From Candidatus Saccharimonadota bacterium (GTDB lineage: Bacteria; Patescibacteriota; Gracilibacteria; BD1-5; UBA6164): 32,000 nucleotides of DNA. The notes beneath the pieces are model-generated. The model made no database searches. It saw nothing but the letters and a program-made list of their open reading frames with translations, and was not told the DNA's origin. Below, one piece after another: positions 1 through 32,000 of the stretch; positions within the stretch are counted from its first letter, which is position 1, and the number at the start of each line of letters is the position of its first letter. The position numbers and the translations under genes are program-made. The DNA is taken from the NCBI GenBank assembly GCA_963677765.1, contig OY782392.1, positions 840,001-872,000 on the forward strand. The letters run 5' to 3'.

Positions 1-2
1 TC

Positions 3-134
3 AATCCTATATCACCATTTTATTTTTGATGAGATATATGGTTTATTATAGATATAATTACAGTTTTTGTTATAGTTTTTAATATTTTTTACTACAATTA
101 TATATCATCTAAAATATCTCTTAATATTCAATAA
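3..134 (+). CDS. 3' end of a CDS entering from upstream of the window (hypothetical, C-terminal hydrophobic helix)
   Basis: Frame 3 is open from the window edge to TAA 132-134 with TGA read as Gly: NPISPFYFGGDIWFIIDIITVFVIVFNIFYYNYISSKISLNIQ*. The two mismatches between this tail and its repeat at 808-846 are both synonymous third positions in this frame. The antisense frame is also open, so the strand call is tentative. Confidence 0.3.
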
Positions 135-143
135 TCTTTATTT
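105..143. repeat. 39-bp direct repeat, copy 1 (tcatctaaaatatctcttaatattcaataatctttattt)
   Basis: 37/39 identical to 808-846 in the same orientation. It covers the last 9 codons and the stop of the partial + strand ORF. Confidence 0.85.
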
Positions 144-234
144 CAATTATATTTATTTAAGTGTTATGGGTTAAACTTTTTCATGTTAGTTTATGTTATG
201 TTTTAATAATGTAAAGTTTATGGTAAAAATTTTC

Positions 235-265
235 AAAAAGACACGGAACTATCCGTGTCTTTTTT
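235..265 (-). terminator. Rho-independent terminator downstream of the minus-strand lipoprotein gene
   Basis: Stem agacacgg (239-246) pairs with ccgtgtct (253-260) around a 6-nt loop, with A/T runs on both sides. It lies directly after the stop at 264-266. Confidence 0.7.
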
Positions 266-737
266 ATATTCATTTTTTTATTCTTATTGAAAATATATCT
301 CATTTAAAGTGTTTAATTCAATCATAGTCATGATTTATATTATAAAATGTTACTTCAATTATCATTCAATCTACTTTCCAAGAATAAGATTTTAATGAAT
401 TATTTGTTCATTCTATATTCTCAGTTTTATAATATTCTCATAAGTCTTTTTTTATGTCTTCTAAACTAGATTTTATATTTATATTTCAATAAATATATCA
501 ATTATAAAGCTCCCATTCTGAATTAACTCTAGAAGGAAAAAATATTCAATCTACTTTATTATATTTATTATATTCCAATCAAAATCACAAATTTTGATAA
601 CTTCAATTTTTACTTTCTCATACCAAATCTACAACTGACTCTCTAGTATCATTAAGTTGAATTTTAAATCTATATTCATTATTAACACTGCAAGAATATA
701 ATAGTAATAATATAGTTAATATAAATATTTTTTTCAT
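264..737 (-). CDS. Small lipoprotein, 157 aa, unknown function
   Basis: ATG at 737, TAA at 266-264. I checked every codon and found no in-frame TAA/TAG, with many in-frame TGA. The N-terminus MKKIFILTILLLLYSCSVNN has a signal peptide plus lipobox (LYSC). Confidence 0.8.
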
Positions 738-807
738 AATGATTTAATTAATTAATATTTTTTTTATAATACTTTTTAAAATATAAAAATCAATTTATAA
801 TTCTACC

Positions 808-846
808 TCATCTAAAATTTCTCTCAATATTCAATAATCTTTATTT
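808..846. repeat. 39-bp direct repeat, copy 2 (relic of a gene 3' end)
   Basis: tcatctaaaatttctctcaatattcaataatctttattt. In the + frame it still reads SSKISLNIQ*, but only 16 codons are open upstream (TAA at 784-786) and there is no start codon. A terminator follows 30 nt downstream. Confidence 0.8.
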
Positions 847-875
847 TTGGCACCTCCATATCAAAAACAAAAAAA

Positions 876-899
876 CCGACTATTTTTAGTCGGTTTTTT
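876..899 (+). terminator. Rho-independent terminator
   Basis: Stem ccgacta (876-882) pairs with tagtcgg (887-893), followed by a T-run at 894-899. Confidence 0.7.
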
Positions 900-958: not shown

Positions 959-1330
959 ATGTGAATAGAATCTCAAGAAGCTAATTCTCTTACAGAAATA
1001 ACGAATAATATAAAGGAAAATCTAATATCTAGATGAACAATAGATATTGAAAAAATTGATTATTATATTAATTTTATATTAAAAGGTAAATTTAGTGAAT
1101 GAAAATTACAAAATTTATACGATAAAATAAGTAATAGTGATGATAAAAAAGTAAATGAAGTTATAGATTTTCTATATTTTATGGGTTATATGGAAAAAGA
1201 ACTAAATGACATAAAATCATCTCTTGATAAAGCTCCAGAAAAAATAAAAAAAGCTATTAGTGAACAAGCAGAAATGGAAAATAAAATTGAATTAGAAGAA
1301 TTTGAAAAATTTATGAATGATAATTTATAA
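959..1330 (+). CDS. Hypothetical small helical protein, 123 aa
   Basis: ATG 959, TAA 1328-1330, with 3 in-frame TGA. Translation begins MGIESQEANSLTEITNNIKENLISRGTIDIEKIDYY and ends EEFEKFMNDNL. No recognised motif. Confidence 0.6.
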
Positions 1331-1371: not shown

Positions 1372-1758
1372 ATGGCAATTGAATCAGTAAATCATACAGT
1401 TGAAGCTGTTAATAACCTTAATAATGATATAAAGGGCTTAGAGAATAAATTAAATGATATAAAAGAGAAAACATGATTGTTCTCAGAATATTCTCCATCT
1501 GAAGGTATGGATAAAGTAATAGATACTATAAGTGATTTTATTAAAGAAAAATATGGAACTATAAATATTATATCAAATGCTTTGTCTAATTGAATTGAAA
1601 ATCAGGAGGTAAATCAGATTTTAACTAGTTTGGTATCTAAGATGGATATTTTAATATCTACTCTAAATGACAATTCAACATGGGTTAGTGGTTGATCAAA
1701 AGATAAATTTAATATGTTACTTGCAGAACTTAATACTGTTAAATCAAAAATTAGCTAA
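1372..1758 (+). CDS. Hypothetical small helical/coiled-coil protein, 128 aa
   Basis: ATG 1372, TAA 1756-1758, with in-frame TGA. Translation begins MAIESVNHTVEAVNNLNNDIKGLENKLNDIKEKTG and ends AELNTVKSKIS. No recognised motif. Confidence 0.65.
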
Positions 1759-1850: not shown

Positions 1851-2636
1851 ATGAAAAAATCTACATTAATTACTTCTATTATTTTTGTATTATTTATATT
1901 TACTTATGTAATTGTTGATGCAAGAGCATGATGATGAGGTTCTTCTAGCTCAGGTGATTGAGAGTCAGTTTTTTGAGCAGTTATAGCATGACTTATCTAT
2001 GCTATATATGAAATTAGAAGAAGAAAAATGATTAAAAAAGCAAAAAAAGATTTAGAAGAAGCTTTGAAATCTGATTCTACTTGGGATTTAGCTTCTTTGA
2101 AAGAGTCTGTTGAAAATGTTTTTTCAAAATATCAAATAGCTTGGTGAGATAAAGACTTAACTAGTGTAAAACATCTAATGACAAAAAAATATTATGAAAA
2201 AGCTAAAAAAATCATGGATAAAAAATTATCTTGAAAAATTAATATAATTAAAGATATAAAAATACATGAAATGAATTTGATGTCTGTAAGAGATATGCCA
2301 GGTAGGGATGGAGATATGTTTGCTATGGAAGTAAGTGCTTCTATGATAGATTATACTATAAATGAAAAGACTTGAAAATTTATTAGATCTACTATGCAAA
2401 AAAGAAAAAATGAAACAAACTTATCTTATCAAAATAGAGCTATGACTTCAGCTTCTGAATTTAAAGAATATTATATTTTTATAAGATATGATTGAAAATG
2501 GTTATTAAATAATATAAAAGAAAAATTTTCAATTGTTTGAGATATAATAAGTTTAAAAGAAAAAGATTTAAGAAAAGTATTAGAACAAGAAGAATCAACT
2601 GATTATGTAGATGATAGTGTTTTTTATAAAGATTAA
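1851..2636 (+). CDS. Tim44-like domain membrane protein, 261 aa
   Basis: N-terminal TM helix, then RAGGGGSSSSGDG (four of these Gly are TGA), a second hydrophobic stretch and a C-terminal alpha+beta region (WDLASLKESVENVFSKYQIAWGDKD...EYYIFIRYDGKWLL). This is the typical layout of bacterial Tim44-like proteins. TAA at 2634-2636. Confidence 0.7.
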
Positions 2637-2778: not shown

Positions 2779-4452
2779 ATGAAAAAATCACTATATATAT
2801 TTTTTGTTATTTTTTTATTATCATGATGTGTTAATCAAATAAATATTGATAATAATTCTAGTTCATGAACAAAAACTGAGTTAGTTAATTCAGGAACTAT
2901 TGATATTACAGAACAATCTAATTCATGAAATCTTGATCTGTCATTTACTTGAAACTTATATAATGATACAAATAAGTATTGTATATTATCAGATTATTGT
3001 ATACCTTCTGAGTTAGAAATAAATCAAGAAAATTGATTTTATATTGCAAATACTTCAACTTGAGAGTATGAGTCTAAGCAAGAATTTACTTATGAGTTAT
3101 CAGAAAACTATGATTATTTTTATATGTCATTAAGTGAATTCATGAGTAAAAAAAATACAAAAATATCTAAAGTATGAAGTTATTATATAAAGTCTTTTGA
3201 TAGAATCTGATGTTGATGATCTAACTTGGAACAAGTAGTTTTAGATTCTAATTGAAAACAAGTAGAAAAAGACTTATTAGATTTAAATATTTCAAAAATA
3301 AAATTATGAAATGTTAGTTTTGAACCAACTTTAAAAGCAAAGGGTTGATTTTGACAACCTCTTGATTCTTATAATGACTTCAAAATTTATAGAGAAGATA
3401 AAAAATACAAAATCTATGAAAATCAAGAAGACTTTGTTAATTTTGTAAATGATAAAGTTATAAACGAGGATAAAAAATTATATAATTCATATATAGCTTT
3501 GTACAAAGATAACCCTGAAGTTTATGTTTTTTATAATTCATTGTGATATGATGATTCTAGTTTAAGGGTTGTATGGTTATGAACTGATGAGTCATATTTA
3601 AATCAAAATATAAAAGAGAATTGAGATTATATGGATTTAGATATAACAAATAAAATAATTTGATATTATGGAGGAGAATATTCTGCTCAAGGTATTTTCG
3701 ATAAAGATTGAAATAGAATAAACTCAGTAACTAAATCTCAATTGCCAATATTTAGTATGAAAAAACTAAATGAAAACTGAAATTATTTAGTTTACTTCAA
3801 GGATTGATATGAATTAAAATCTTTTGCTGAAATGTGTAAACCTGTTGTTTATTATTACTCAAATGAAAAAGAAAAAAATAATCTTACTATTGATATAAAA
3901 AAATGAGATTATTTTACAACTCTTATTCCTGAATTTAACAATAATAATTGATGGGATTTTGAATCAAATGATTGAAATATAACTGTTTGAGAATCTAGTT
4001 ATGATTATCTTTATTATTCTTTAGTTACTATGGATTATAAACATAATAATGATTGATGGATAGTATTATGAGATAATATAGTTGAATTTTTTGATGATAA
4101 ATTAGATAAAATTAACTTTAATAAAAAAGAAAAACAAGACTTTATAGATTTTTGGAAAACAGAATATGAATCTTGAAAATATTATTTTGTTTCTTTTAAA
4201 TACAAAGAAGAGCTTGATAAAATAGTTGATTTAAAATTTTCAAAAAATGTAGATAATGAATTCAGAGTTTTACTTGATAGTTATGAATTAACTGATTTTG
4301 TTATGGAAGAAAAAGAAAAATTTTTATATTCAAATGTTTGAGATAAATTCGATAATTATCTTATAAAAAGATTTGGAAGGGATAATAATTCAACTGAGGT
4401 TTTTGAGTGGGGAGGTGTTCTGATAAAAAAAGATGAAACAATTATAAAATAG
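2779..4452 (+). CDS. Large lipoprotein, 557 aa, unknown function
   Basis: ATG 2779, TAG 4450-4452. I checked all 558 codons for TAA/TAG. The N-terminus MKKSLYIFFVIFLLSGCVNQ has a lipobox L-S-G-C whose Gly is a TGA codon. There are dozens of in-frame TGA. Confidence 0.85.
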
Positions 4453-4455: not shown

Positions 4456-6201
4456 ATGAAAAAGATAATAACATTTATTTTTATGATTCTTATTATAAGT
4501 TCTTGTTCTAAACAAGAGCTTATTTTGAATGAAAATAAAGAAACAGAAGTTACAAAAAATGAAAAATATTTTACTATAATTCCTCACCATAATTTGGTTG
4601 ATGAAAAAATAGATGAATATTATAATTATTTGAAAAACAAATATAATAACTTTGATAATATTATAATAATTTCACCTAATCATTTTGAAAATGTTTATTA
4701 TAGTCCTTGAGTAGAAACAAAGTTTTGTAACAAAATGTATCCAAATGAATGTTTAACTATAAATTCTTTAGATTGAATTAATTTAGATAAAAATATAATA
4801 TCAAATGAAAATATAGATGAATTAGTATTAACAAAAGAGCATTGAATAGCTAACCATTTTAAATTTATTAATAAATATTTTAAAAACTCAAATATTTATA
4901 GTATTTTATTAAAAATAGATATAGAAAAAGATTATTCATTGGAAGAAATATCTGAAAAACTCAAGAATTATAACTTTAAATGAAAAACTTTATTTATATG
5001 ATCAGTTGATTTTTCTCATCATGTTAATGAAAAAGTAGCTGTATTTCATGATATGAATACTTTGGATTATTTAAATGGTTGATTTGAAAAAAAAATAGAA
5101 GTAGATTGTCCTAATTGTTTATATTTGATAAAAGATCTTTCTAGCCATTATTCAAAGAATAATTTTGATTTATATTCTAGAACATCAACAGATTCATTTC
5201 TTAATATAAATTCAAACTTTGATAATACTAGTCATATCTATTGAGAGTTTATAAAAGAAAAAAAAGATAATTATGACTCTGTTTTTTCATGATTACTAGA
5301 TGAAAGTAACTTTGATATAATTACTTGAACATGAAATATAAATAATAATTATGTATATTGAATGTTTTTTTGAGATACTCATTTTACTAGATGATTTACA
5401 AGTTATTATAACAAAAACACTATAGATGATTATTTATCATGTTTTTATTCAAATGCTGATTTAACTAGAGAAATTGATTATTGGCATAATAGAATTTTTT
5501 ATTGATTTGATATAGTTTGAGTAAATTTGGAAACTTCAGTCTGATATAAAAATGAGTGTCAATATTCTCAAAAAGAAATAAAATTTCAAACTGATCCTAA
5601 GTATTTATTAGATTTTAAAAAAGTATGAATTAATACTTTTAATCTAGCTAATAATCATAGTTATGATTGTTGAAATATATGATATGAAGCAACAAAAAAA
5701 TACTTGGAACAAAATAACTTAGATTATTTTTGAGATTGAAGAAAAAATGAGGAAAAAATTCTAAAAAAAGATATAAATTGAACAAAAGTAGCTTTTGTAT
5801 GATTTAATGATATTTGAAATCAAATAAATATCTCAGATAAATCAGATAAAATAAAAAACTTAACTGATGAATGATATATTGTTATAGTAAATATACATTG
5901 GTGAATGGAATATCATTTAAAATCAAACAATAGACAAAAAAATATAGCTAAGAGTTTTATTGATTCTTGAGCTAAGCTTATAATATGACATCATCCTCAT
6001 GTTGTTCAAGATTATGAAATATATAAATGAGTTCCTATTTTTTATAGCTTGTGAAATTTTATTTTTGATCAACCATTTGAAAATACTTTAAAATGATATT
6101 GATTGATTTTTGCAATAAACAATAATTCTGTTAAATATAATTTATTAGAATTTAATAGAAACAGTAAAAATTTTATGATAGATTGTGATAGTTTTAAATA
6201 A
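4456..6201 (+). CDS. Lipoprotein fusing a Memo-like (class III extradiol dioxygenase fold) N-domain to a CapA/PGA_cap metallophosphatase-like C-domain, 581 aa
   Basis: Signal peptide and lipobox MKKIITFIFMILIISSCS. N-domain motifs: IIPHHNLV, IIISPNHF, GSVDFSHHVNEKVAVFHDMNTLDYL. C-domain CapA motifs: FFGDTHFTRG, NLANNHSYDCG, FVGFND, NIHWGMEYH (tgg tga), GHHPHVVQ, YSLGNF. All codons checked; TAA at 6199-6201. Confidence 0.85.
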
Positions 6202-6294: not shown

Positions 6295-7710
6295 ATGAAA
6301 AAAAATAATGCATTAGAGTGATCCATAGTTAAATCTATACTTACACTGACAATACCAATTTTGATATCTAATTTACTTCAAAGTGCTTATCAATTAATTG
6401 ATGCTTTTTGGGTTTGAAAACTTTGAGAAAATGCTGTAGCAGCTGTTTCTATAAGTTTTCCTATAACTTTTTTTCTTATATCTGTATGAAGCTGATTTTC
6501 TATAGCTTGAGCTACACTTATTGCTCAGTTTTATTGAGCTAAGAATTTTAAAAAAGTTAATCATGTAGCAGCTCAAACTATTTTACTTGTAGTTATTGTT
6601 TCTATATTATTATCTATAGTTTGATATGTATCAGCAGGTTTTATATTATGAATTATGTGAGTGGAAGCAGCTGTTTATAATGAAGCATTAAAATTCTTAC
6701 AAATTTCATTTTTATGAATGGTTTTTGTTTTTTCATTTTTTATGTTTCAATCATTACTAAGAGGTATATGAGAAGTAAAATTACCAATGAAAATAGTGTT
6801 ATTTACAGTTATATTAAATCTATTTTTAGACCCTCTGTTTATATTTTGATATTGAATAATACCTGCTATGTGAGTTTCATGAGCTGCTTTAGCAACTTTA
6901 TTTACTCAGTCAATTGCTACTTTTATAGGTTTATTTTTCTTGTTTAAATGAACATATTGAATAAAAATTTCTATACCAAGTTTTAAACCAGATTTTTCAT
7001 ATATTAAAACAGCTTTTTTCTTATGATTTCCTTCTTCTATAGAAATGTCATTACGTAGTTTATGATTAGTTATTTTAACTATTTTAATTACTAGTTTTTG
7101 AACTACAGCAGCAGCATCATATTGAGCATGATCAAATATAGTTCAGTTGGTTATGATACTATCTCTATGATTATCTATGTCAACAGCAGCGCTAGTATGA
7201 CAAAATATAGGAGCTAAAAATATTGCCAGAGCAGAAGAGATAGCTAAAGTAAGTTCACTTCTTTCATTTGTTTTTCTAACAATTATTTGAATAATAGTAT
7301 TTATATTTGCTAAATATTTTGTTTGATTTTTTGTTCCTTGAGAACAAGCTGTAATTGATTGATGAGCAAGATTTTTACATATTATTTCATTATCTTTTTG
7401 ATTAATATGAATTCAAATGGCTATTACTTGAGTATTTAGAGCTTCGGGTAATATGAATACTGCTCTTATATTAACAATCATATCTCAGTGGGTATTGCAA
7501 TTCCCATTAGCATATATATTGTCTAAACATACAGATTTATGAATAGATTGATTATGGTATGCTATTTTACTAACAAATATTATAATGGTATTTATTTCTA
7601 TTTTGGTATTTAAAAAATGAGATTGGAAAAATAAAAAGCTTACAAAAGAAGATAAATTAGAAGAAGAAGTTTATGAAAATACAGTTATAGAAAGATGATA
7701 TAAACATTAA
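6295..7710 (+). CDS. MATE family efflux transporter, 471 aa
   Basis: Twelve-TM-like hydrophobic profile. The N-terminus PILISNLLQSAYQLIDAFWVGKLGENAVAAVSISFP is typical of MATE/NorM. The second half has GLSMSTAALVGQNIGAKN. All codons checked; TAA at 7708-7710. Confidence 0.9.
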
Positions 7711-7718: not shown

Positions 7719-7748
7719 GGCTCTAGCTTTTTGCTAGATCCTTTTTTT
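7719..7748 (+). terminator. Rho-independent terminator shared by convergent genes
   Basis: Stem ggctctagc pairs with gctagatcc (one mismatch), followed by a T7 run. The stop codon of the minus gene 7734-8060 lies inside it. Confidence 0.7.
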
Positions 7749-8060
7749 GTATTTTTTTGAATGTATTTTATTCCTTTCTTCTTTTAAATATCTTATATAT
7801 TTATCAGTATTTGAACCACTAATAATTTTATAATTTTTTGGATTAACATCTATCTCAAATTTGTAATCATTAGATTCTATTATTTTAACTAAATCATTAC
7901 TTATTCTAGATACTCCAAGCATTTTTTTTATATTAATTAAATCAACTTGTTTTACTTCGTTTTCAATAATTATTTCTGCAATTAGTTTTGTTCTTTTCCT
8001 CAAAATATTTTCAACCCATATAGGTTTTTGATATCTTATTTTTTTTATTTTTGCATACAT
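7734..8060 (-). CDS. Hypothetical small basic protein, 108 aa (possibly HTH-like)
   Basis: Intact in the standard-code track. GGAG Shine-Dalgarno 6-8 nt upstream of the ATG at 8060. Lys/Arg-rich ends. The segment LINIKKMLGVSRISNDLVKII resembles a helix-turn-helix. Confidence 0.65.
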   Translation of the reverse strand: MYAKIKKIRYQKPIWVENILRKRTKLIAEIIIENEVKQVDLINIKKMLGVSRISNDLVKIIESNDYKFEIDVNPKNYKIISGSNTDKYIRYLKEERNKIHSKKYKKRI

Positions 8061-8202: not shown

Positions 8203-8874
8203 ATGAAAAAAGTTATAAAAATATTAGTTTTATTATTTATATTATGAATATCATCTATTTTACTTATAAATTTGTATGTTTTATCTTTTTCTAAATCAAA
8301 GATAATTACAACTACAAGCATAGATTTAGATTATGGCGTATGAATAGTTTTTTGAGCAAAAGTAAAAGATAATTGAAACCCTTCTGATATATTAAAAGAT
8401 AGATTAAAAGTAGCATATGAAGCTTATTCTAATAAATTAGTATCAAAAATAATCGTATCATGAGATAATTCTAGAATTGATTATGATGAAACTACTGCAA
8501 TGAGAGATTATTTGATACAATTATGAGTAAATAAAGATGATATATATATGGACTATGCTTGATTTGATACATATGATACTTTATATAGAGCAAAAGATAT
8601 ATTTTGAGTAGAAAAAGCAGTTTTATTTACACAAACTTTTCATTTAAAAAGAGCTTTATATATTTCAAATAGAATTTGAATAGATTCTATTTGAATAAGT
8701 ACTGATTTAAGAGATTATATTTATTCTGATTATTATAATAGGAGAGAAGCATTAGCTCGTATAAAAGCATTTTTAAATGTTGAAATATTAAGATCAAAAC
8801 CAAAATACCTATGAGATAAAATAGATTTAAATATTCCACAAACAGAAATAAGTGAACTAAATGTTTATAAGTAA
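8203..8874 (+). CDS. sanA: SanA/YdcF (DUF218) family envelope protein, 223 aa
   Basis: N-terminal TM helix, then GIVFGAKVKDNGNPSDILKDRLKVAYEAY...IIVSGDNSRIDYDETTAMRDYLIQLGVNKDDIYMDYAGFDTYDTLYRAKDIFGV...FTQTFHLKRALYISNRIGIDSIG. This matches the SanA pattern. All codons checked. Confidence 0.85.
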
Positions 8875-10919: not shown

Positions 10920-10945
10920 AGAACTAGTAATCTAGTTCTTTTTTT
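10920..10945. terminator. Bidirectional terminator between convergent genes
   Basis: Stem agaactag pairs with ctagttct around a 4-nt loop, with an A-run upstream and a T-run downstream. Confidence 0.7.
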
Positions 10946-20073: not shown

Positions 20074-20111
20074 TATACTCAGTCATGTATTTATATTTTT
20101 TAACTAAATTT

Positions 20112-23435: not shown

Positions 23436-23900
23436 ATGAATGATATTTATGGTATAAAGGATATATTAGAATTTTTATCTTATTGATTTTTTTTAAGTTT
23501 ATTGTCTTTAATATTAATAATTGTTATATATATTCTTTTATCAAAATTTCATAAAAATAAAACTATTGATTCTAAGTTAATAAATAATGATGATGAAAAA
23601 AATATAGATTATAATTTTTTAGAAGATTTGGATATTTTATATTCAAATATTAATAGTTTAAATGAAGTTTTATTTTTAAAAAAATTATTACATATTTATA
23701 TATTATTTATTAATAATAAATATAATTATGATTTTTCTTCTAAAACTTTATTAGAGTTTAAAAATTTAGATATTATAGAAAAAAAAGATTTAGATTTATA
23801 TAGCAATATATATAATAATATATATTCATATAAATCATTGGATAAAAATTATTTAAATGATATTTTTTATAAGGTAAGGCAACAAGTAACTGATAATTAA
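23436..23900 (+). CDS. Small single-pass membrane protein, 154 aa, in the position usually held by a DUF4381-type protein in Bat operons
   Basis: ATG lies 1 nt after the DUF58 stop. TM helix FFLSLLSLILIIVIYILL. The assignment rests on operon position and topology only. Confidence 0.6.
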
Positions 23901-23901
23901 T

Positions 23902-24897
23902 ATGGTAGATTTTTTAAATATACATTTTTTAGATAAATATTATTTTTTATTGATAATTGTATTATTTATATTTTTTTATTTTTTATTAAAGAGTAAAAAA
24001 AATATAAATAACTTTAGTTGATTGAATGATTTAAAATTTGTTTTTAAAAGTAGCTTTTATATTTTTTATATAAAAGTTATTTTACTTTTTTTAATTTTTA
24101 TTACTTTTTTTGCTATATTTGCAAATCCGAATTATAAAAATATTGATAAAAATATTACAAAAAATGGTATAGATATAGTTTTAGCATTTGATATTTCATA
24201 TAGTATGAATGCAAATGATTTTAATCCAAATAGGATTACTGTTGCAAAAACTATATTAAACGATTTTTTGAATAAACAAACAACAAATAGGCTTTGACTT
24301 GTTGTTTTTGCCTGAAAACCATTTACATCTATTCCTTTAACTTTTGATTATTCTGTATTAAAAGAAACTATAAATTTGCTTGATACAAATACTATAAATC
24401 AAAATATTTCTTGATTGTCATGAACTGCTATATGAGATGCTTTATTAATGTCTTCAAATTTATTCAAAGATGAAAATAGAGAAAAAGTTATAATTCTTTT
24501 AACAGATTGAGATGCTAATACATGAGTAGATCCAGAATTAGCGGTTAATTTATTAAAAGAAAAAAATATAAAATTATATAGTATATGAGTTTGATCAAAG
24601 GATTGAGGTGAAGTAACTTTTAATACTTGATTATTTTCTCAGAATTTAAAAGTTAATCCTTTAAATGAAGAATATCTAAAGGGGTTAACGGAAAAAACTT
24701 TTTGAAAATATTATTCTGCTGTTGATTCTAATTCTTTTGAAAATGCATTTAATGATTTAGAAAAATTAGAAAAAAATGAATTAAAAACAGAAGAAAATAT
24801 TTATTATAGAGATGCTTATGATATTTTTGTATATTTGTTAATTATTTTTATGTCATTTTATATTTTTTTATTATTTTATAAAGCTAAATTAGATTAG
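23902..24897 (+). CDS. batA: VWA domain membrane protein, BatA-like, 331 aa
   Basis: Two N-terminal TM helices. MIDAS motif DIVLAFDISYSM, then GLVVFAGKPF, SGTAIGDAL, IILLTDGDANTG and YSIGVGS. C-terminal TM helix. TAG at 24895-24897. Confidence 0.88.
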
Positions 24898-24914: not shown

Positions 24915-25934
24915 ATGTCAGTCGAATTCACTTTTTTACAATTTTTAATTTTTATATTTTTATCATTTTGATCATTATTTTTATTCTTTTTATTTTATAA
25001 AAAAAATAAAAATATAACTAATATTTTTATTTTAAAACAAAAAACTAACTTTTTTTATATAAAATACATATTTTTATTAGTTTCTTTTATTATATTACTG
25101 TTTTCTTTATTTTGAATCAAGTCATATTGAGATAGTTTTTCAAAAAATGAATGAGTTCCAATAGTATTTGTTTTAGATGTTAGTAAATCTATGAATGTAG
25201 CTGACATTTCAAACTCTAATAATTATTATACTAGGTTAGATTTTTCTAAAACTATTATTGAGAATTATGTACTAAATAATAAAAATAATAAATATGGTTT
25301 AGTTATTTTTGCATGAGAGGCAATATCAGTTACACCTATTACTAGTGATATAAATGTATTTTTAAGCTCTTTATCAAATGTAGATTATAAAAATTTAACA
25401 CTTCAATGAACTGACTTTTCTAGTGCCTTAGAAGAAGCTAATAATAGAATTGATTTGTTATGAGATACTGATAAAGCTGCTTTGATATTAATAAGTGATT
25501 GATGAGATGAAGATATAACTAATAATAATTTTAGAGAATTATTATCAGATAATTATAGTTATTTTGTTTTATGAGTTTGAACTAATAAGTGAGGAAGAAT
25601 TATATTATGAAAAGATGTTTTTTGAAGATATGATTATCAAACTTATAATTGAGATTATGTTATAAGTAAGTTAAATGAAAATAATCTTTTGTATCTATCT
25701 AATCAATTGGAGTGAAGCTATAAAAAAATATCTAATATAAATGATGTTAATACTTTTTTAGAAAAAATTGATAATTTATCTAAAAAAATATATGAGTTAA
25801 ATACAAAAAACTATATAAGTTATTCTAGAAATATATCATTTATATCATTTTTCTTTTTCTTTTTATATTTTTTATTTTATCTATTTGAAAATAGGATTTA
25901 TTTATTAATTTATAATAATGAACAAAAAAAATAA
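24915..25934 (+). CDS. batB: VWA domain membrane protein, BatB-like, 339 aa
   Basis: N-terminal TM helices. MIDAS motif IVFVLDVSKSM, then GLVIFAGEA, QGTDFSSAL, LILISDGGDE and LGVGTNKGG. C-terminal TM helix. All codons checked. Confidence 0.85.
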
Positions 25935-26637
25935 AATATTTTTATTGCTTATTGCTTTATTTTTATTGTTTAATATTTATGTTTTTTATAATATTAATAT
26001 AGCATATAATTGAAATAAATTATATTTATCAAAAAATTATTTAGAATCTATAGATAAGTATAATAATTTTTTAGATAATAAATTATTTCTAAGCAATAAT
26101 GTTAAATCAAAAATATTACATAATATTTGAAATTCTTATTATAGATTAGGTGAACTAGCTGAATTATGAGATAAAAAATTATATTTTTGATATTCTATAA
26201 AATCTTATGAAAAATCTTTATCTATTAGATATGATGAAAAGACCAAATTTAATTATGATTTTGTAAAAAATAAGTTAGATGATTTAAATAATAATCAACA
26301 ACAAAATAATAATCAAGATAATAATTCTTGAGAAAACTCAGATAAAAATAACTGAAACTCAAATTCATGAAATAATAGCTCTAGTAATTGAGAAAATAAA
26401 AATAATAATTCAGAAGATAGTTCTAACTCAAATACAACAAATAATAATGATAAATTATCTAGTGAGGAAAGTGAATTTTTAGAAAAATATATAGACTGAT
26501 TAAATCAAGATCAAGAATATTATAATTCTTTTTATAATAAAAATTATAAACAAAATGATGATATTTTTGATATGTTTATGAGTGATAGTATATTTGATAA
26601 CTCTTTATTAAATCAAGATAACTCAAAAGATTGGTAA
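25918..26637 (+). CDS. BatC-like TPR-containing protein with Asn/Ser/Gly-rich linker, 239 aa
   Basis: ATG overlaps the batB end by 17 nt. TM helix, then the TPR-like segment ILHNIGNSYYRLGELAELG...SIKSYEKSLSI, an N/S/G-rich low-complexity region, and the tail EFLEKYIDGLNQDQ. All codons checked. Confidence 0.6.
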
Positions 26638-26644: not shown

Positions 26645-26669
26645 ATCAGGATAATAAATCCTGATTTTT
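26645..26669. terminator. Bidirectional terminator between convergent genes
   Basis: Stem atcagga pairs with tcctgat around a 7-nt loop, with A- and T-runs flanking. Confidence 0.7.
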
Positions 26670-26955
26670 ATATTTTTTTAAAGAACTCTGTTCTTAAAAC
26701 CATTTTTCCTGACTCAATAAGTTCTACATCATCTGTAAGTCTTATTTTAGGGAACTTATCTCATCTTTTGATATCAGATGCTCATTTTACTTTTATATCT
26801 TTTATAGCTACTACTGTATCTCACTCTTGTAAGATATTTCAGTTAGCATCTTTCACAAGCAATTCATTTTCATCTTGTTTATCTATTTCTACTAACTCAC
26901 CATTATTATCATAAGTCCACTTATTCCAGTCAATTTCATCGAAGTCTTTAGACAT
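26668..26955 (-). CDS. PhnA/YjdM C-terminal-domain protein without a zinc ribbon, 95 aa
   Basis: The segment VKDANGNILQEGDTVVAIKDIKVKGASDIKRGDKFPKIRLTDDVELIESGKMVLRTEFFKKI matches the PhnA/YjdM C-domain pattern. There is no Cys in the N-terminal 40 aa. Confidence 0.75.
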
Positions 26956-27006: not shown

Positions 27007-27918
27007 TTATTTCAATTTTTTAATTTTATAGAAATATCTTGTTTCTATATAATTAATTATTTCTTTTGCTATATTTAATCAAGTTGCTTCTTCTAATCAT
27101 TTAAATCCAGGAGCAGCATTTATTTCACATATTCTATATCAATTATCTTTATCAAATAATAAATCTACTCATGCTATATCTAGTCATACAAGATTAGTAG
27201 CTTCTATTGATAGTATTTCTTCTTTTTCGTTTACTTCATGATTATAAACACTTCATCATCATGAGAAATTAGCTTTAAAATCTCATTCTTTTCATTTTCT
27301 AAGCATAGAAGCTATAACTCTTCATCATACTAAAAATATTCTCAAATCTACTCAAGCTTTTTCTCAAATATATTCTTGTAAAAGTAAGTAAGTGTTAAGT
27401 TTAGATAGACTATCTTCCATCATTTCAAGAATATCTTCTAATTCTCAACTATTTTGAACTTTTATTATTCATTTTCAAGCTTTTCAATCAAGTTTTTTTA
27501 AAATAATAGGATAGTTTAATTGTTTTTCTATGAAACCAATATTTGGCATTCATTTTAATAATATCGTTTTTGGAACAGGTAATCTATTTGCAGCTAACTT
27601 TTGTAGAGATAAAAATTTATCATTAGCAAGTAATCTAGCTTGATTTTCATTTATAACATATACTCAAGCATGTTCCATAAAATCCATTATTGAAGTCATT
27701 TGATATGAGTTATCAACTCTAGGTATTACAACATCTGGTAAAGTTGTTTTTTCATTTTTTATAAAAAGTTTTTCTTCTGAGTATGCATCTATAACTAATT
27801 CTATATCTTCAATAGCTACAAATTTGATATCCATTTTTCTTTTTAATCCTTCTTCTATTAGTCTTTGAGTTCAATAAACATTTTCATTTTTTTCTTTATC
27901 CAATATCCATATTTTCAT
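27007..27918 (-). CDS. rimK: RimK-family ATP-grasp alpha-L-glutamate ligase, 303 aa
   Basis: Motifs: NDKFLSLQKLAANRLPVPKT, YPIILKKLDGKAGKGI, LLQEYIGEKAGVDLRIFLVGGRVIASMLRKGKEGDFKANFSGGGS, GLDIAGVDLLF, ICEINAAPGFKGLEEATG. All codons checked. Confidence 0.9.
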
Positions 27919-28074: not shown

Positions 28075-28407
28075 ATGGAATATACAATATTAAAAACATT
28101 TAGGCACACAGTTAAAATACCCTTTATTTTAAGGTTGTTTTTTGGTGTATTTTTTATTATTGTTTCTTGAATTCCAATTATACTTCCTCTTTTCCCATGA
28201 TCACTTTTAGTATGAGTTTTTTTATTAGTTTTATGAATAATACTTGTTATATCTCCAAAAAAGATAAGACATGTTATTAAAATGAGAAAATCAATAATAT
28301 ATCTTTTTAAAAATATACATAATAAACATGTTGTAAGGCATAAAATTTATGATATCAAAATACATGTTATGCAAATATTAAAAAAAGATACAAACAAAAA
28401 AATATAA
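28075..28407 (+). CDS. Small membrane protein with basic tail, 110 aa (PGPGW-like, tentative)
   Basis: Two hydrophobic helices (LRLFFGVFFIIVSGIPIILPLFPGSLLVGVFLLVLGIILV) followed by a Lys/His-rich tail. All codons checked. Confidence 0.55.
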
Positions 28408-28416
28408 TATAAAAAT

Positions 28417-28453: not shown

Positions 28454-28474
28454 TTATTTATAACTTTTTTGATT

Positions 28475-29104
28475 ATGCTTACAGAAAAACAACAATATGT
28501 TTTGGATGTTATTACAAAATATATTTGAGAAAATGCAAAATCACCAACTATTGAAGAGTTAACTATTTTATTAAATCAAAAATCAAAAAGATGAGTTGTT
28601 CAATACTTAGAAGCTTTAGAGAAAAAATGATTTTTAACTAGAGGTAGATGATATAGATCTATTAGTTTATGAAATAATGTTTGATTTCAGACTACATTAA
28701 ATGTTCCTATTTTATGATATGCTAATGCTTGAACTCCTCTTGTAGATGCTGTAGAAGCAGGTTATTGAGTTTTACCTATATCTAAAAAAATACTTAGTTG
28801 AGATGAGTCTAATTATTTTATTTTAAAAGTAGAATGAACTTCTATGAATCAATACGAAGTAAAATGAAAAACTATTGATAATGGTAGTTATGTATTGATA
28901 AAAAAAGATGATAACACTTTAAATAATAGTGATGCATTTTTATTTTTGGTTAATTGATCTGCTACTTTGAAAAAATATAAAAAAGAAGGTGATATTATAT
29001 ATTTATTACCTGAATCTAGTGATGATTATCATAATCCTATTATATTATCAGAATATGATAATATAGCTGTTAATGGTAAGGTTATCGATGTTTTCAATTT
29101 TTAA
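28475..29104 (+). CDS. lexA: LexA repressor (S24 peptidase), 209 aa
   Basis: N-terminal winged HTH LTEKQQYVLDVITKYIGENAKSPTIEELTILLNQKSKRGVVQYLEALEKKGFL. Cleavage region VPILGYANAGTPL (the Ala-Gly Gly is TGA). Catalytic VEGTSM and ATLKK. All codons checked. Confidence 0.92.
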
Positions 29105-29109
29105 AAAAA

Positions 29110-29138
29110 ATACTCTTTTTATAAGAGTATTTTTTTTT
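29110..29138. terminator. Bidirectional terminator between lexA and ppk2
   Basis: Stem atactctt pairs with aagagtat around a 5-nt loop, with an A8 run upstream and a T8 run downstream. Confidence 0.8.
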
Positions 29139-30309
29139 ATTCGAATAAATCTTCATTTATATCTATTTCTTTTTCAAGCATTTTTACTTTTTCTTTTCCA
29201 TCATAAACTATTTTATCATCCAAAATTAATTTATCAGCATCAATTTTATCTGGATAATCATATTGGTTTAAGATATACTTAATTGCATTTATTCTTGCTT
29301 TCTTTTTATCATCACTATTTATTAATATCCAAGGTGCTTTTTTATGGTGAGTATTTTTAAAGTTATGATATTCAGCAATAGAATATTTTTCCCATAATTG
29401 TTGAGAGTATTGGTCAATAGGAGATAATTTGTATTGTTTTAATGGATTGTATTTTCTTGATTCAAATCTAGCATTTTGTTCTTCTTTACTAACAGAAAAA
29501 TAAAATTTTACTATTTTTATACCTGAATCTACAAGCATTTTTTCAAATTTTGGAACTTCATCAAGAAATTGTTCATATTTTGATTTTGAAACAAATCACA
29601 TAACAGGTTCTACTCAAGCTCTATTATACCAAGATCTATCAAAAAATACCATTTCTCAACCAGCAGGTAAATGTTGTATATATCTTTGAAAATACCATTG
29701 AGTTTTCTCAGTTTCATTTGGTTTTTCTAAAGCAGTTACTCTAGCTCATCTAGGATTTAAGTATTCTCTAAATCTTTTTATAGTACCTCATTTTCAAGCA
29801 GCATCTCTACCTTCAAATATGATTAATAATTTTTGTCATGTTTCTTTAATATGTTTTTGTAGTTTCAGTAATTCTACTTGTAAAGAAATTAATTCTTTTT
29901 CGTATTTTATTTTTTTCTTTTTATAACATACTTTTTTATATTTTTTTCTATCTTCTTCATTTATATCAGAACATTTTTTAAAGTTTTTTTCTTCGAATTC
30001 CTTTACTACATCTATTAACTCTTTTTTATCTTCTTCTTCTTTTGTTTCTGTTTCTTCATCAATAAAATCATCTATTTTTTCTAATAAATCCTTTATTGGT
30101 TTATATTCTCTTTTTTCTTTTTTTGTTAAATTTTCAACTTTTTCTTCAAGTAAGTGTTCAATTTTATTTTTTAATACTTTTAGATTATCAATATCGTTAT
30201 CTACTTTAAATTTATTGAATAATTTTTCTGATTCTTTTATGAATTGTCAAACTAATTCAGGAGTTAATTCAACATTATTATTAAAAATTTGGTAAAATAA
30301 ATTTGTCAT
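29137..30309 (-). CDS. ppk2: Polyphosphate kinase 2 (PPK2) with a ~125-aa N-terminal charged/coiled-coil extension, 390 aa
   Basis: Core motifs: LLIIFEGRDAAGKGGTIKRF (P-loop), [37 protein letters not shown], and KAPWILINSDDKKKARINAIKYIL. The C-terminal 133 aa appear in the supplied track. All upstream codons checked back to the ATG at 30309. Confidence 0.92.
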
Positions 30310-30459
30310 TTTTTGCGTCTTATCAATTAATATTACTAAAATAATTTTACTATATAAAAAAAAGTGAGTCAAAAAAAGTTTAAAATAATGACTTGATTAA
30401 ATCAAAAAATATTTTATGAAAATAAATCTTGCATTTTTTTATAAAAAAATATAATTAGT

Positions 30460-30668
30460 TCAACAGCGCTTGAACAGCTAACAACTGTGAGCTCGAGGAA
30501 GAACGGATTATTCTTATTAGACCCTCGCGGAGAATTAAACTTCGTAAACAAATTAAATTAAGAAAATGCTTTAGGTGGCACCTTTCAAATTATATTTTGA
30601 ACCGAAAGCACAAAAATATTTAAAAAACTATATTATTTAGTATATATAAAATATTTTTGTGTTTTTTT
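30460..30668 (+). promoter_or_regulatory. T-box-like leader RNA (candidate tRNA-Asp-sensing riboswitch) upstream of aspS
   Basis: This is the only G+C-enriched non-coding patch in the window. It has the T-box-like sequence tgctttAGGTGGCACCttt (30568-30585). A GAC codon (30520-30522) sits on the 3' side of an internal loop closed by CGAGG/CCTCG. A perfect 13-bp terminator stem cacaaaaatattt (30609-30621) pairs with aaatatttttgtg (30649-30661), followed by T7. A candidate promoter TTGCAT-N15-TATAAT lies at 30429-30455. Confidence 0.55.
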
Positions 30669-30807
30669 AATTTTTTGACTCAAATAGATTTGATAAATCG
30701 ATTTGTTGCCAAAATTTGTTCTGGCTTATTACTTTATATAAATTATATGAATAATTTATATTTTAAAAAAAATACCAGTATTAATTATATCCTTTAATAA
30801 AATAAGA

Positions 30808-32000
30808 ATGTTAAGAACGCATAATTGTAATGAACTTACTTCAAAAAATATAGGTGAAAAAGTTACTTTATCATGATGGGTTAGTAATAGAAGAGATCAT
30901 GGTGGTATTATTTTTATCGATTTAAGAGATAGATATGGATTAACTCAAGTTGTTTTTGATCCAGAAGATAATAAAAAAGCTTGGGAATTAGCTGATAGTT
31001 TTAGAAGTGAATATGTTATACAAGCTACTTGAACTGTTAGATCTAGACCAGAAGGTCAAGAAAATCCTAGAATGTATACTTGAGAAATTGAAATAATAAT
31101 AGATGATGAAGTAAAAATTTTATCAAAATCAAAAACTCCTCCTTTTGAATTAGACTGACATGGTGAATTATCAAATGAAGAAGTTAGATATAAACATAGA
31201 TATTTAGATTTAAGAAGACCTCAAGCTTTAGAAAATGTTAAGTTTAGATCTAAATTTATAACTTATACTAGAAACTGGTTTACATCTAGAGATTTTTTAG
31301 ATGTACAAACTCCTATTTTTACAGCTAGTTCTCCTGAATGAGCTAGAGATTTTGTTATACCTTCTAGATTACATCCAGGTAAATTTTATGCTTTACCTCA
31401 AGCTCCTCAACAATATAAACAATTGTTAATGGTTGGTGGTATTGATAAATATTTTCAAATAGCTCCATGTTTTAGAGATGAAGATCCTAGAGCAGATAGA
31501 CATGCTTGTGAATTTTATCAAATCGATTGTGAAATGTCTTTTGTTGAACAACAAGATATATTTAATGTAGTAGAAAGTTTTTTCTTTGATTTAGTTAAAG
31601 AATTATCTACAAAAAAAATAATGGATGAAAAATTCTATTCTATGAGTTTTGTTGATGCTATGGAAAAATATGGTTCAGATAAACCAGATTTAAGATATGG
31701 TTTAGAAATGGTTGATGTAATGGATATATTTTCTAGATCTACTAATGAAATTTTTTCTTCAATTGCTAGTGATACGAAAACTAATAGAATAAAAGCATTA
31801 AGAGTTCCTTCATGAGATACTTATTTTTCAAAAACACAAATGAAAAATTTTGAAAAATTCGTTAGACAACATTGAGCTCAAGGTCTAGGTTATTTTCAAA
31901 TGCAAGAAGATGGATTAAAAGGACCTTTGAATAAATTCTTTAGTGAATCAGATTTACAAGAAATAATTGATAGAACAGGACTTGAAGTATGAGATGCTAT
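30808..32000 (+). CDS. aspS: Aspartate--tRNA ligase (bacterial type), N-terminal ~397 aa; continues past the window end
   Basis: Translation: [44 protein letters not shown]...HRYLDLRRP...[17 protein letters not shown]...[53 protein letters not shown]. The SGW, TGT, PEGARDF and other Gly positions are TGA. Confidence 0.97.

What the first reader, a model, noticed from the sequence alone, without database searches (positions are those of the whole stretch)
1..32000. The whole window is recoded: in-frame TGA reads as glycine (translation table 25)
With the standard code, almost every recognisable gene is chopped into short pieces by TGA. Reading TGA as a sense codon gives about 35 uninterrupted CDSs with coding density near 90%, and every one ends in TAA or TAG.

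The TGA positions fall on invariant glycines of well-known motifs, not on tryptophans:
- MoxR Walker A, G-V-P-G-LAKT (both Gly).
- PPK2 P-loop, AAGKGG.
- LexA scissile Ala-Gly, and VEGTSM.
- AspRS, SGW and PEGARDF.
- CapA, HWGMEY and GHHPH.
- HtpX, NAFATGW.
- OmpR-family, VWG and KGVGY.
- HK G-box, GYGLG.
- Lipobox, LSGC.
- Tim44-like, RAGGGGSS.

TGG is still used for Trp and sits directly next to TGA (tgg tga in HWG, tga tgg in TGW). That argues against the Mycoplasma-type TGA=Trp code. In moxR, 15 of 18 Gly codons are TGA by my count. Table 25 is known only from Absconditabacteria (SR1) and Gracilibacteria, so the contig most likely comes from one of those CPR lineages. Any standard-code annotation of it would be badly wrong.
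Basis: partly seen in the sequence, partly recalled or inferred. Interest (0 to 1): 0.75.

Follow-up and report, generated by a model that had tools for sequence, protein, structure and literature searches.

The report
TGA read as glycine: Gracilibacteria contig
This very AT-rich stretch of DNA comes from an uncultured Gracilibacteria (BD1-5) bacterium that reads the stop codon TGA as glycine; this genetic code (table 25) is already known, so the finding is correct but ordinary for that lineage.

Summary
The observation and the interpretation both hold.

- **ORF structure.** With the standard code, ORFs of at least 100 aa cover 19% of the window. With TGA as sense they cover 93%; shuffled sequence gives 1.4%. 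I called 34 genes. They hold 416 in-frame TGA and no in-frame TAA or TAG.
- TGA is 4.3% of codons, GGN 1.1% and TGG 0.47%.
- **Blind tests with TGA masked as X.** In five alignments to solved structures, 40 of 61 TGA sites faced Gly and none faced Trp. At the 37 TGA columns of the MATE transporter, 78 distant homologues carry 84.5% Gly. A Codetta-like score gives Gly +105 bits and Trp -147 bits.
- **Pfam scores.** They total 2133 bits with Gly and 1742 bits with Trp.
- **Orthologous DNA.** In 80 related genomes, window TGA aligns to TGA (51%) or GGN (31%). It aligns to TGG in 0 of 2191 cases.
- **Lineage.** The nearest relatives are Candidatus Gracilibacteria MAGs. The best has 89% AspRS identity and 11.4 kb of synteny.

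The tRNA-Gly(UCA) and the loss of RF2 could not be checked for this genome. Both are supported at lineage level only.

The phenomenon is known. The notable points are modest: GC is 20.6%, TGA supplies about 80% of Gly codons, and public protein databases hold Trp-mistranslated copies of these proteins.

The parts
1..32000 (.). Whole window: recoded chromosome segment (TGA = Gly), GC 20.6%, 34 genes, 90.6% coding
264..737 (-). g01 lipoprotein (DUF3862-like), 13 TGA, 0 GGN
959..1330 (+). g02 hypothetical, 3 TGA
1372..1758 (+). g03 hypothetical, 3 TGA
1851..2636 (+). g04 Tim44-like domain protein, 11 TGA; RAGGGGSS has 3 of 4 Gly as TGA (1923-1946)
2779..4452 (+). g05 lipoprotein of unknown family, 29 TGA; lipobox LSGC with TGA (2818-2829)
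4456..6201 (+). g06 CapA/PGA_cap (plus a weak Memo hit), 32 TGA, 1 GGN; HWGMEY and GHHPH use TGA
6295..7710 (+). g07 MATE efflux transporter, 37 TGA; the test case for the column tabulation
7734..8060 (-). g08 hypothetical, the only ORF with no TGA
8203..8874 (+). g09 DUF218 protein, 11 TGA
8970..9518 (+). g10 LemA, 6 TGA
9547..10467 (+). g11 HtpX-like M48 peptidase, 14 TGA; NAFATGW = ...TGA TGG
10565..10915 (+). g12 hypothetical, 5 TGA
10944..12887 (-). g13 DUF4153 membrane protein, 22 TGA
12953..13441 (-). g14 YbaK/ProX-type aminoacyl-tRNA editing domain protein, 8 TGA
13745..14878 (+). g15 DUF2202 (ferritin-like) protein, 12 TGA and 17 GGN
14949..15611 (+). g16 OmpR-family response regulator, 12 TGA, 0 GGN; VWG and KGVGY use TGA
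15623..16465 (+). g17 histidine kinase, 7 TGA; G-box GYGLG = GGG TAT TGA TTA TGA
16496..17917 (-). g18 membrane protein with a spermine/spermidine-synthase-like domain, 21 TGA
17919..19193 (-). g19 histidine kinase, 24 TGA, 0 GGN; GNGLG is all TGA
19183..19869 (-). g20 OmpR-family response regulator, 14 TGA, 0 GGN
20085..21023 (+). g21 BatD-like protein, 4 TGA
21046..21390 (+). g22 hypothetical, 3 TGA
21546..22568 (+). g23 MoxR AAA+ ATPase, 15 TGA and 3 GGN; Walker A GVPGLAKT has both Gly as TGA (21738-21761)
22577..23434 (+). g24 DUF58 protein, 13 TGA
23436..23900 (+). g25 hypothetical membrane protein, 1 TGA
23902..24897 (+). g26 VWA-domain protein (BatA-like), 13 TGA
24915..25934 (+). g27 VWA-domain protein (BatB-like), 16 TGA
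25918..26637 (+). g28 hypothetical low-complexity protein, 9 TGA
26668..26955 (-). g29 PhnA/YjdM domain protein, 4 TGA
27007..27918 (-). g30 RimK-like ATP-grasp ligase, 21 TGA
28075..28407 (+). g31 small membrane protein, 4 TGA
28475..29104 (+). g32 LexA, 13 TGA; the Gly of the Ala-Gly cleavage site (28724-28738) and of VEGTSM (28829-28846) is TGA
29137..30309 (-). g33 PPK2 polyphosphate kinase, 8 TGA; P-loop AAGKGG = GCT GCT TGA AAA TGA GGT
30808..31998 (+). g34 AspRS, cut off at its 3' end by the window end; 8 TGA and 16 GGN; SGW and PEGARDF use TGA

Best explanation
The window is a chromosome segment of an uncultured, extremely AT-rich (20.6% GC) bacterium. It belongs to the Gracilibacteria/BD1-5 clade (GTDB class JAEDAM01). 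This clade uses genetic code 25: UGA is a sense codon for glycine, UGG stays tryptophan, and only UAA and UAG terminate.

Shown here:
- TGA is in frame in 33 of 34 genes.
- TGA sits at conserved Gly positions.
- TGA exchanges with GGN between orthologues.
- Under strong AT pressure (GC3 about 7-12%), TGA has become the main Gly codon, about 80% of all Gly codons.

Inferred from the lineage, not shown for this genome:
- UGA is decoded by a dedicated tRNA-Gly with anticodon UCA. This tRNA carries the GlyRS identity set G1:C72, C2:G71, G3:C70 and U73.
- Release factor 2 (prfB) has been lost, so nothing competes for UGA. RF1 terminates at UAA and UAG.
For: 1. ORF statistics. Coverage is 19% with the standard code and 93% with TGA as sense; shuffles give 1.4%. 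There are 416 in-frame TGA against 0 TAA or TAG.
2. Codon budget. TGA is 4.31%, GGN 1.1% and TGG 0.47% of 9642 codons.
3. Blind X-masked matches to solved structures. Gly counts are MoxR 9 of 14, RimK 13 of 21, AspRS 5 of 7, PPK2 6 of 7 and LexA 7 of 12, with no Trp at any site.
4. MATE transporter. At 37 TGA columns in 78 distant homologues, 2440 of 2886 residues are Gly (84.5%), against a 9.9% background. The Codetta-like log-odds are Gly +105, Ala -105 and Trp -147 bits. All other codons with n of at least 4 decode as in the standard code.
5. Pfam. The sum is 2133 bits with Gly and 1742 bits with Trp, and 17 of 18 domain hits score higher with Gly.
6. Orthologous codons in 80 related loci. 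Window TGA aligns to TGA in 50.9% and to GGN in 30.9% of cases, and to TGG in 0 of 2191. Window TGG aligns to Trp in 93.7%. In ten outgroup loci that look standard-code, 6 of the 8 AspRS TGA sites are GGN wherever they could be aligned.
7. Lineage. The 80 best AspRS loci are almost all Candidatus Gracilibacteria MAGs. The best, L001, has 89% amino-acid identity and is syntenic over window 20742-31998 at 77% nucleotide identity. The relatives are recoded too.
8. Mechanism in the lineage.
   - prfB is absent and prfA present in the closed BD1-5 genome (1.343 Mb, 28.87% GC). By size this matches CP042461.1, locus L012. prfB is reported absent from all other BD1-5 genomes too (PMC6851277).
   - tRNA-Gly(UCA) and RF2 loss are the recognised hallmarks of this code (PMC8629427).
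   - Proteomics found 97 peptides unique to the UGA=Gly translation against 3 unique to UGA=Trp (PMC4032931).
   - I found a tRNA(UCA) with G1:C72, C2:G71, G3:C70 and U73 on a recoded 132-144 kb cellular contig (L124/L166). Its TsaD has 8 of 12 TGA sites at Gly and is 59% identical to a Gracilibacteria locus.
Against: - The window contains no tRNA gene and no release-factor gene, so the decoder tRNA and the loss of RF2 are not shown for this organism.
- None of the 80 AspRS neighbourhoods holds a tRNA(UCA).
- About one third of TGA sites face non-Gly residues in single pairwise alignments. These are variable positions (S, A, N, D, E); no alternative residue dominates.
- There are no protein-level data for this organism.
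- NCBI names on MAGs are unreliable. Some hits are labelled Peribacteria, Patescibacteria or even Saprospiraceae, so placement rests on sequence similarity, not on a phylogeny.
Confidence: 0.96

Rival explanations
1. TGA encodes tryptophan (table 4), as in Mycoplasmatales and several insect endosymbionts, which are also very AT-rich.
For: - GC is very low, at 20.6%.
- ORF boundaries are identical under tables 4 and 25.
- Public pipelines evidently chose this reading: P0001 and 18 other database homologues carry W at the TGA columns.
- The weak Memo hit scores marginally higher with W, 27.8 against 26.5 bits.
Against: - Trp is aligned at 0 of 61 TGA sites in the structure alignments.
- TGG is aligned at 0 of 2191 orthologous codons.
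- Trp scores -147 bits against +105 for Gly.
- Pfam loses 390 bits in total with Trp.
- The proteome would be 4.8% Trp and 1.1% Gly.
- All relatives are Gracilibacteria.
Confidence: 0.01
2. The code is standard, and the TGA codons are real stops in a heavily pseudogenised or mis-assembled sequence.
For: With table 11 almost every gene is broken, and the longest ORF is 192 aa.
Against: - Only TGA interrupts the frames: 416 TGA against 0 TAA or TAG, although TAA is abundant off-frame.
- The same in-frame TGA sites are conserved in dozens of independent assemblies.
- Full-length domain matches are recovered once TGA is read through.
Confidence: 0.005
3. The sequence is a stop-codon-recoded phage or other mobile element, not a bacterial chromosome.
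For: Some phages recode stop codons, and phages of CPR bacteria are known (PMC10746230, listed).
Against: - The gene content is cellular housekeeping and envelope: AspRS, LexA, PPK2, two two-component systems, MATE, HtpX and a Bat/MoxR operon.
- The window shows 11.4 kb of synteny with a 134 kb Gracilibacteria MAG contig. The AspRS has 78-79% identical homologues in closed Gracilibacteria chromosomes.
- No phage structural families were seen in Pfam.
Confidence: 0.01
4. The code is table 25, but the organism is an Absconditabacterium (SR1) rather than a Gracilibacterium (BD1-5). In that case CGA and CGG might additionally mean Trp.
For: - Both orders share table 25.
- One MATE homologue is labelled Absconditabacterales, at 53% identity.
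- CGA and CGG are absent from the window's genes, so their meaning cannot be read here.
Against: - The closest AspRS and MATE hits are labelled Gracilibacteria. They include the closed BD1-5 genome CP042461.1 and HOT-871 at 78-79% AspRS identity.
- In low-GC relatives, CGA aligns with Lys or Arg in the window, not Trp.
Confidence: 0.04

Closest known systems
Genetic code 25 in Gracilibacteria (BD1-5), e.g. the closed genome CP042461.1 (Sieber et al. 2019, PMC6851277) and the proteomically validated BD1-5/SN-2 bin (Hanke et al. 2014, PMC4032931)
   Same: - UGA is Gly, UGG is Trp, and UAA and UAG are stops.
- The genome is low-GC and gene-dense.
- AspRS is 78-79% identical to the closed genomes, and local synteny is shared with Gracilibacteria MAGs.
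   Different: - GC is lower than in the described genomes: 20.6% against 28.9% and 33.2%. This is at the bottom of the published 0.21-0.53 range.
- TGA supplies about 80% of Gly codons. Among 66 related loci the window ranks 3rd for this share, and 34 of them exceed 50%.
- The best match among species representatives is only 89% AspRS identity, so this is probably an unrepresented species.
Genetic code 25 in Absconditabacteria (SR1), Campbell et al. 2013; Shulgina and Eddy 2021 (PMC8629427)
   Same: The same UGA-to-Gly reassignment, with tRNA-Gly(UCA) and RF2 loss as hallmarks.
   Different: - It is the sister order, with more distant homologues.
- SR1 is additionally predicted to read CGA and CGG as Trp. 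Here those codons are simply unused.
Genetic code 4 (UGA = Trp) in Mycoplasmatales and insect endosymbionts
   Same: - UGA is captured as a sense codon in AT-rich reduced genomes that have lost RF2.
- ORF boundaries are identical.
   Different: The amino acid differs. TGA sites here are Gly and never Trp.

Membership tests
Translation table 25 (UGA = Gly; Gracilibacteria/Absconditabacteria) | UGA occurs in frame throughout genes, and ORFs are restored when UGA is read as sense | tested here: met
   - Coverage rises from 19% to 93%, against 1.4% in shuffles.
- 416 in-frame TGA lie in 33 of 34 genes.
Translation table 25 (UGA = Gly; Gracilibacteria/Absconditabacteria) | UGA positions correspond to conserved glycine in homologues from standard-code organisms | tested here: met
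   - 40 of 61 sites are Gly in the structure alignments.
- 84.5% Gly at the 37 MATE columns.
- Gly scores +105 bits.
Translation table 25 (UGA = Gly; Gracilibacteria/Absconditabacteria) | UGG remains Trp and is not interchangeable with UGA | tested here: met
   - Window TGG aligns to Trp in 93.7% of cases and never to TGA.
- Window TGA aligns to TGG in 0 of 2191 cases.
Translation table 25 (UGA = Gly; Gracilibacteria/Absconditabacteria) | UAA and UAG remain stop codons | tested here: met
   - All 33 complete genes end in TAA or TAG.
- Several Pfam matches run to or near the end of both the profile and the protein (e.g. LemA 149/149, Peptidase_M48, RimK).
- MATE is 471 aa, against about 465-486 aa in most listed homologues.
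Translation table 25 (UGA = Gly; Gracilibacteria/Absconditabacteria) | The genome encodes a tRNA-Gly with anticodon UCA (G1:C72, C2:G71, G3:C70, U73) | not testable with these tools
   - There is no tRNA in the window and none with UCA in the 80 AspRS loci.
- At lineage level only: such a tRNA is present on the recoded cellular contig L124/L166, whose TGA sites are Gly.
Translation table 25 (UGA = Gly; Gracilibacteria/Absconditabacteria) | Loss of prfB (RF2) with prfA retained | not testable with these tools
   - No release-factor gene lies in the window, and the rest of the genome is unavailable.
- The literature reports prfB absent from all BD1-5 genomes, including the closed genome that corresponds to relative L012 (PMC6851277).
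Translation table 25 (UGA = Gly; Gracilibacteria/Absconditabacteria) | Membership of the clade Absconditabacterales + BD1-5 (GTDB class JAEDAM01) | tested here: met
   - The best AspRS loci are Gracilibacteria MAGs and closed genomes, at 78-89% identity.
- 11.4 kb of synteny with L001.
- This is similarity-based; no tree was built.
Translation table 4 (UGA = Trp) | UGA positions correspond to conserved tryptophan | tested here: not met
   - 0 Trp at 61 sites, and 0 TGG among 2191 orthologous codons.
- Trp scores -147 bits.
- Pfam scores are lower with W for 17 of 18 hits.

The most novel reading that the evidence does not exclude
AT pressure may have carried this lineage beyond plain table 25. 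TGA has largely replaced the GGN family: 416 TGA against 107 GGN, with GGC at 4 and GGG at 7. CGA, CGC and CGG are absent from 9642 codons. Some of these near-extinct codons (CGA or CGG, or GGG or GGC) could be unassigned or already reassigned in this genome. Reassignment of CGA and CGG to Trp has been predicted for Absconditabacteria, and of CGG for some Gracilibacteria. The window cannot exclude this, because the codons are simply not used.
Probability: 0.08. Interest if true: 0.55.

Novelty: new member of a known kind. Interest (0 to 1): 0.25.

Why it matters
Biologically this is a textbook case of table 25, so it adds no new principle.

The practical value is in annotation. With table 11 the contig is shredded. 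With table 4, the usual fallback of gene callers, every protein gets Trp at about 4% of its residues. These fall mostly on catalytic and structural glycines such as Walker A, P-loops and the LexA cleavage site. Such mistranslated copies are already in public protein collections.

The window is also an extreme point for codon-capture models. At 20.6% GC the captured stop codon supplies about four fifths of all glycine codons.

Tried and rejected
- **Exact look-up of g08.** This is the only ORF free of TGA. No record of it was found in the contig index.
- **tRNA scans.** The window and 80 related AspRS neighbourhoods (1.15 Mb) gave 14 tRNAs, none with anticodon UCA.
- **Rfam scan of the window.** Nothing reached gathering scores.
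- **Degenerate tRNA-Gly(UCA) pattern over metagenome contigs.**
  - It returned 22 tRNA(UCA) genes, which ARAGORN labels SeC by default.
  - About six lie on clearly recoded low-GC contigs. Many of the rest lie on high-GC contigs that look standard-code, and I did not pursue them.
  - None can be tied to this genome.
- **Sigma factor next to the L124 tRNA.** I hoped its homologues would name the lineage. It has no close named homologue. Lineage was instead inferred from the neighbouring TsaD and ABC genes, about 58% identical to Gracilibacteria loci.
- **AspRS without TGA in L004-L007.** I considered that this marked a non-recoded subclade. I rejected it, because their flanking genes still need TGA as sense.
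- **CGA/CGG reassignment.** There are no such codons in the window. In low-GC relatives the few CGA codons align with Lys or Arg.
- **Not used.** I did not use structure prediction, fold search or the representative-protein search; I judged them unnecessary.

Full report

The window is 20.6% GC. ORFs of at least 100 aa cover 19% of it under the standard code and 93% when TGA is a sense codon. Making TAG sense gives 25%, and making TAA sense gives 69%. In 100 shuffles of the window, the TGA-sense reading covers 1.4% on average (maximum 4.4%). The longest shuffled ORF is 196 aa or less, against 667 aa in the real sequence.

I called 34 non-overlapping genes of at least 80 aa, with 90.6% coding density. 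The 33 complete genes end in TAA (28) or TAG (5). Inside these genes there are 416 in-frame TGA and no in-frame TAA or TAG. TAA occurs 606 and 680 times in the two off-frames. So only TGA is tolerated in frame.

- AAGKGG has 2 of 3 Gly as TGA.
- GYGLG in g17 has 2 of 3 as TGA.
- RAGGGGSS has 3 of 4 as TGA.

**2. Which amino acid does TGA encode?**

*Codon budget.* TGA is 4.31% of codons, all GGN together 1.1%, and TGG 0.47%. Reading TGA as Gly gives 5.4% Gly and 0.47% Trp. Reading it as Trp gives 1.1% Gly and 4.8% Trp, which is not a plausible proteome.

*Blind alignments.* I masked every TGA as X and matched five proteins against solved structures from standard-code organisms:

| Protein | Structure | TGA sites at Gly |
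|---|---|---|
| MoxR | 2r44 | 9 of 14 |
| RimK-like | 7qys | 13 of 21 |
| AspRS | 4wj3 | 5 of 7 |
| PPK2 | 4yeg | 6 of 7 |
| LexA | 3k2z | 7 of 12 |

The total is 40 of 61 at Gly and none at Trp. The Gly sites include both Walker A glycines of MoxR, the PPK2 P-loop, the Gly of the LexA Ala-Gly cleavage site, and the Gly two residues before the LexA nucleophile Ser. The non-Gly sites are scattered over S, A, N, D, E, T, K and R at variable positions.

*Column tabulation.* The X-masked MATE transporter (37 TGA) was searched against the large protein collection. At the 37 TGA columns, the 78 more distant homologues (no more than about 52% identity) carry Gly in 2440 of 2886 cells (84.5%). The background Gly frequency is 9.9%. 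These homologues include some named as Alphaproteobacteria and as CPR groups other than Gracilibacteria and Absconditabacteria.

A Codetta-like log-odds sum over these columns gives Gly +105 bits, Ala -105 and Trp -147. Every other codon seen at least 4 times decodes to its standard amino acid.

*Profile scores.* For ten proteins, the Pfam domain scores sum to 2133 bits with TGA as Gly and 1742 bits with TGA as Trp. Of 18 domain hits, 17 score higher with Gly. Examples are RimK (152.6 against 98.8), PGA_cap (175.8 against 110.5) and MatE (219.1 against 161.2). The only exception is a weak, sub-threshold Memo hit.

**3. Evidence from related DNA**

A scan of one genome per species with the AspRS fragment returned 80 loci. 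Almost all are titled Candidatus Gracilibacteria.
- The best, L001 (JASMTS010000014.1), has 89% AspRS identity. It aligns with window 20742-31998 at 77% nucleotide identity over 11.4 kb, so gene order is shared.
- The closed genomes CP042461.1 and CP017714.1 have 78-79% AspRS identity.
- The low-GC relatives also need TGA as sense. Standard-code coverage is about 0.1-0.6 against 0.84-0.99 with TGA as sense.
- A group of more distant, higher-GC loci (L068-L071, L074, L077, L078) look standard-code.

I aligned orthologous ORFs codon by codon without assuming any meaning for TGA:
- The window's TGA codons face TGA in 50.9% of 2191 cases and GGN in 30.9%. They never face TGG.
- The window's GGT and GGA face TGA in about 25-27% of cases.
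- The window's TGG faces Trp in 93.7% of cases and never faces TGA.

In the ten standard-code outgroup loci, six of the eight AspRS TGA sites are GGN wherever they could be aligned. One site is Asp and one is mixed. This is the pattern of a synonymous TGA/GGN exchange.

**4. How it most likely works**

UGA = Gly is shown directly by the sequence. The machinery is inferred. The window has no tRNA gene, no Rfam match and no release-factor gene, and the rest of the genome is not available.

Published work on the lineage gives the following:
- tRNA-Gly(UCA) and loss of RF2 are the hallmarks of table 25 (PMC8629427; gTranslate preprint).
- prfB is absent and prfA present in the closed BD1-5 genome (1.343 Mb, 28.87% GC). 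By size this matches relative L012, CP042461.1. prfB is reported absent from all other BD1-5 genomes too (PMC6851277).
- Proteomics found 97 peptides unique to the UGA=Gly translation against 3 unique to UGA=Trp (PMC4032931).

As a partial test of my own, I scanned metagenome contigs for a tRNA pattern. The pattern required the Gly acceptor identity (G1:C72, C2:G71, G3:C70, U73) and a UUCAA anticodon-loop core. ARAGORN confirmed 22 tRNA(UCA) genes.

One of these lies on a 132-144 kb low-GC contig (L124/L166) with cellular genes, including TyrRS, TsaD and an ABC transporter. That contig's TsaD and ABC proteins are about 58% identical to ORFs in the Gracilibacteria loci. Its TsaD has 8 of 12 TGA sites at Gly against structure 8iey. 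So the expected decoder exists in recoded relatives. That it exists in this genome remains an inference.

**5. What drives the extreme usage?**

GC3 is about 7-12% in nearly every gene (6-21% overall). Across relatives, the TGA share of Gly codons in AspRS falls as GC rises (Spearman rho -0.71).

Over whole loci the window's TGA share is 0.81, third of 66. Thirty-four loci exceed 0.5. TGA-dominant glycine coding is therefore typical of the low-GC part of this clade, and the window sits at its AT-rich edge. Its 20.6% GC is below all 80 relatives' loci, whose minimum is 21.8-21.9%. It is also at the bottom of the published 0.21-0.53 range.

**6. Rivals**

- Table 4 is excluded by the alignments (sections 2 and 3).
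- Pseudogenes or assembly errors are excluded. Only TGA interrupts the frames, and the same sites recur in independent assemblies.
- A recoded phage is excluded by the housekeeping gene content and by synteny with bacterial contigs.
- An Absconditabacteria origin is unlikely on similarity, but I built no tree.

**7. Comparison with what is known, and verdict**

The phenomenon has been known since 2013 and has been validated by proteomics. The organism is probably an unrepresented species, since the best AspRS identity to a species representative is 89%. I therefore rate it a new member of a known kind, with low interest.

The nearest database copy of the MATE protein (P0001) differs from the window's protein at 7 of the 434 non-TGA residues. 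It carries Trp at 36 of the 37 sites that are TGA in the window's gene and Gly at the other one. Nineteen of the 120 listed homologues show the same Trp signature. The gTranslate preprint reports that its tool calls table 4 for 11 genomes of this class, and it clamps its UGA/GGN log ratio at 0. The window's ratio is about 3.9 to 1.

Noticed in passing
window 6295-7710 (g07); proteins P0001, P0002, P0003, P0005 and others: The public protein collection holds Trp-mistranslated versions of this MATE protein. P0001 differs from g07 at only 7 non-TGA residues and has W at 36 of the 37 sites that are TGA in the window. Nineteen of the 120 listed homologues have W at more than 20% of the TGA columns, which points to gene calling with table 4 on table-25 organisms.
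   Followed up: partly
window 30808-31998 (g34 AspRS), 13745-14878 (g15); loci L004-L007: TGA use is uneven. AspRS has 8 TGA and 16 GGN, and g15 has 12 TGA and 17 GGN, while most genes have 70-100% TGA. In relatives L004-L007 the AspRS gene has no TGA at all, although the flanking genes need TGA as sense. Possible causes are selection on a conserved or highly expressed gene, or gene history.
   Followed up: partly
whole window: CGA, CGC and CGG are absent from all 9642 codons, and CGT occurs 3 times. Arg is encoded by AGA (209) and AGG (20). The meaning of CGA and CGG cannot be read here. Reassignment of CGA and CGG to Trp has been predicted for Absconditabacteria, and of CGG for some Gracilibacteria.
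   Followed up: partly
window 20085-26637 (g21-g28): A Bat/MoxR-type operon: BatD-like, a small protein, MoxR, DUF58, a small membrane protein, two VWA proteins and a low-complexity protein. It is conserved in order in L001 and, in part, in L053, L054 and L056.
   Followed up: no
window 14949-16465 and 17919-19869: Two OmpR-family response regulator and histidine kinase pairs lie on opposite strands. They flank a membrane protein with a spermidine-synthase-like domain.
   Followed up: no
L124 1549-1622 and L166 9840-9913: A tRNA(UCA) with the Gly identity set (gcgggta...tgcccgc-t-cca) sits immediately upstream of a sigma-70-like gene. That gene has no close named homologue and appears on at least 24 contigs. 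The contig is a 132-144 kb recoded cellular contig.
   Followed up: partly
L148 10441-12222: A tRNA array (Ser, Asp, Ala, Tyr, Ile, Arg) is followed by a tRNA(UCA) only about 3 nt before a tRNA-Gly(UCC). The contig is partly recoded, with coverage 0.47 against 0.89. The arrangement fits an origin of the UGA decoder by duplication of tRNA-Gly(UCC).
   Followed up: no
L089, L095, L122, L128, L130, L154, L160 (metagenome contigs, GC 0.43-0.66): tRNAs with anticodon UCA and Gly-type acceptor stems also occur on high-GC contigs that look standard-code. These could be opal-suppressor tRNAs, phage-borne tRNAs or other cases. I did not examine them.
   Followed up: no
window 7734-8060 (g08): This is the only ORF without any TGA. 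It is 108 aa and lysine-rich, has no Pfam match, lies on the opposite strand to its neighbours, and has no exact record in the contig index.
   Followed up: partly
window 30310-30807 and 13442-13744: These are the two largest intergenic gaps, 498 bp upstream of aspS and 303 bp upstream of g15. They have no Rfam match at gathering scores.
   Followed up: no
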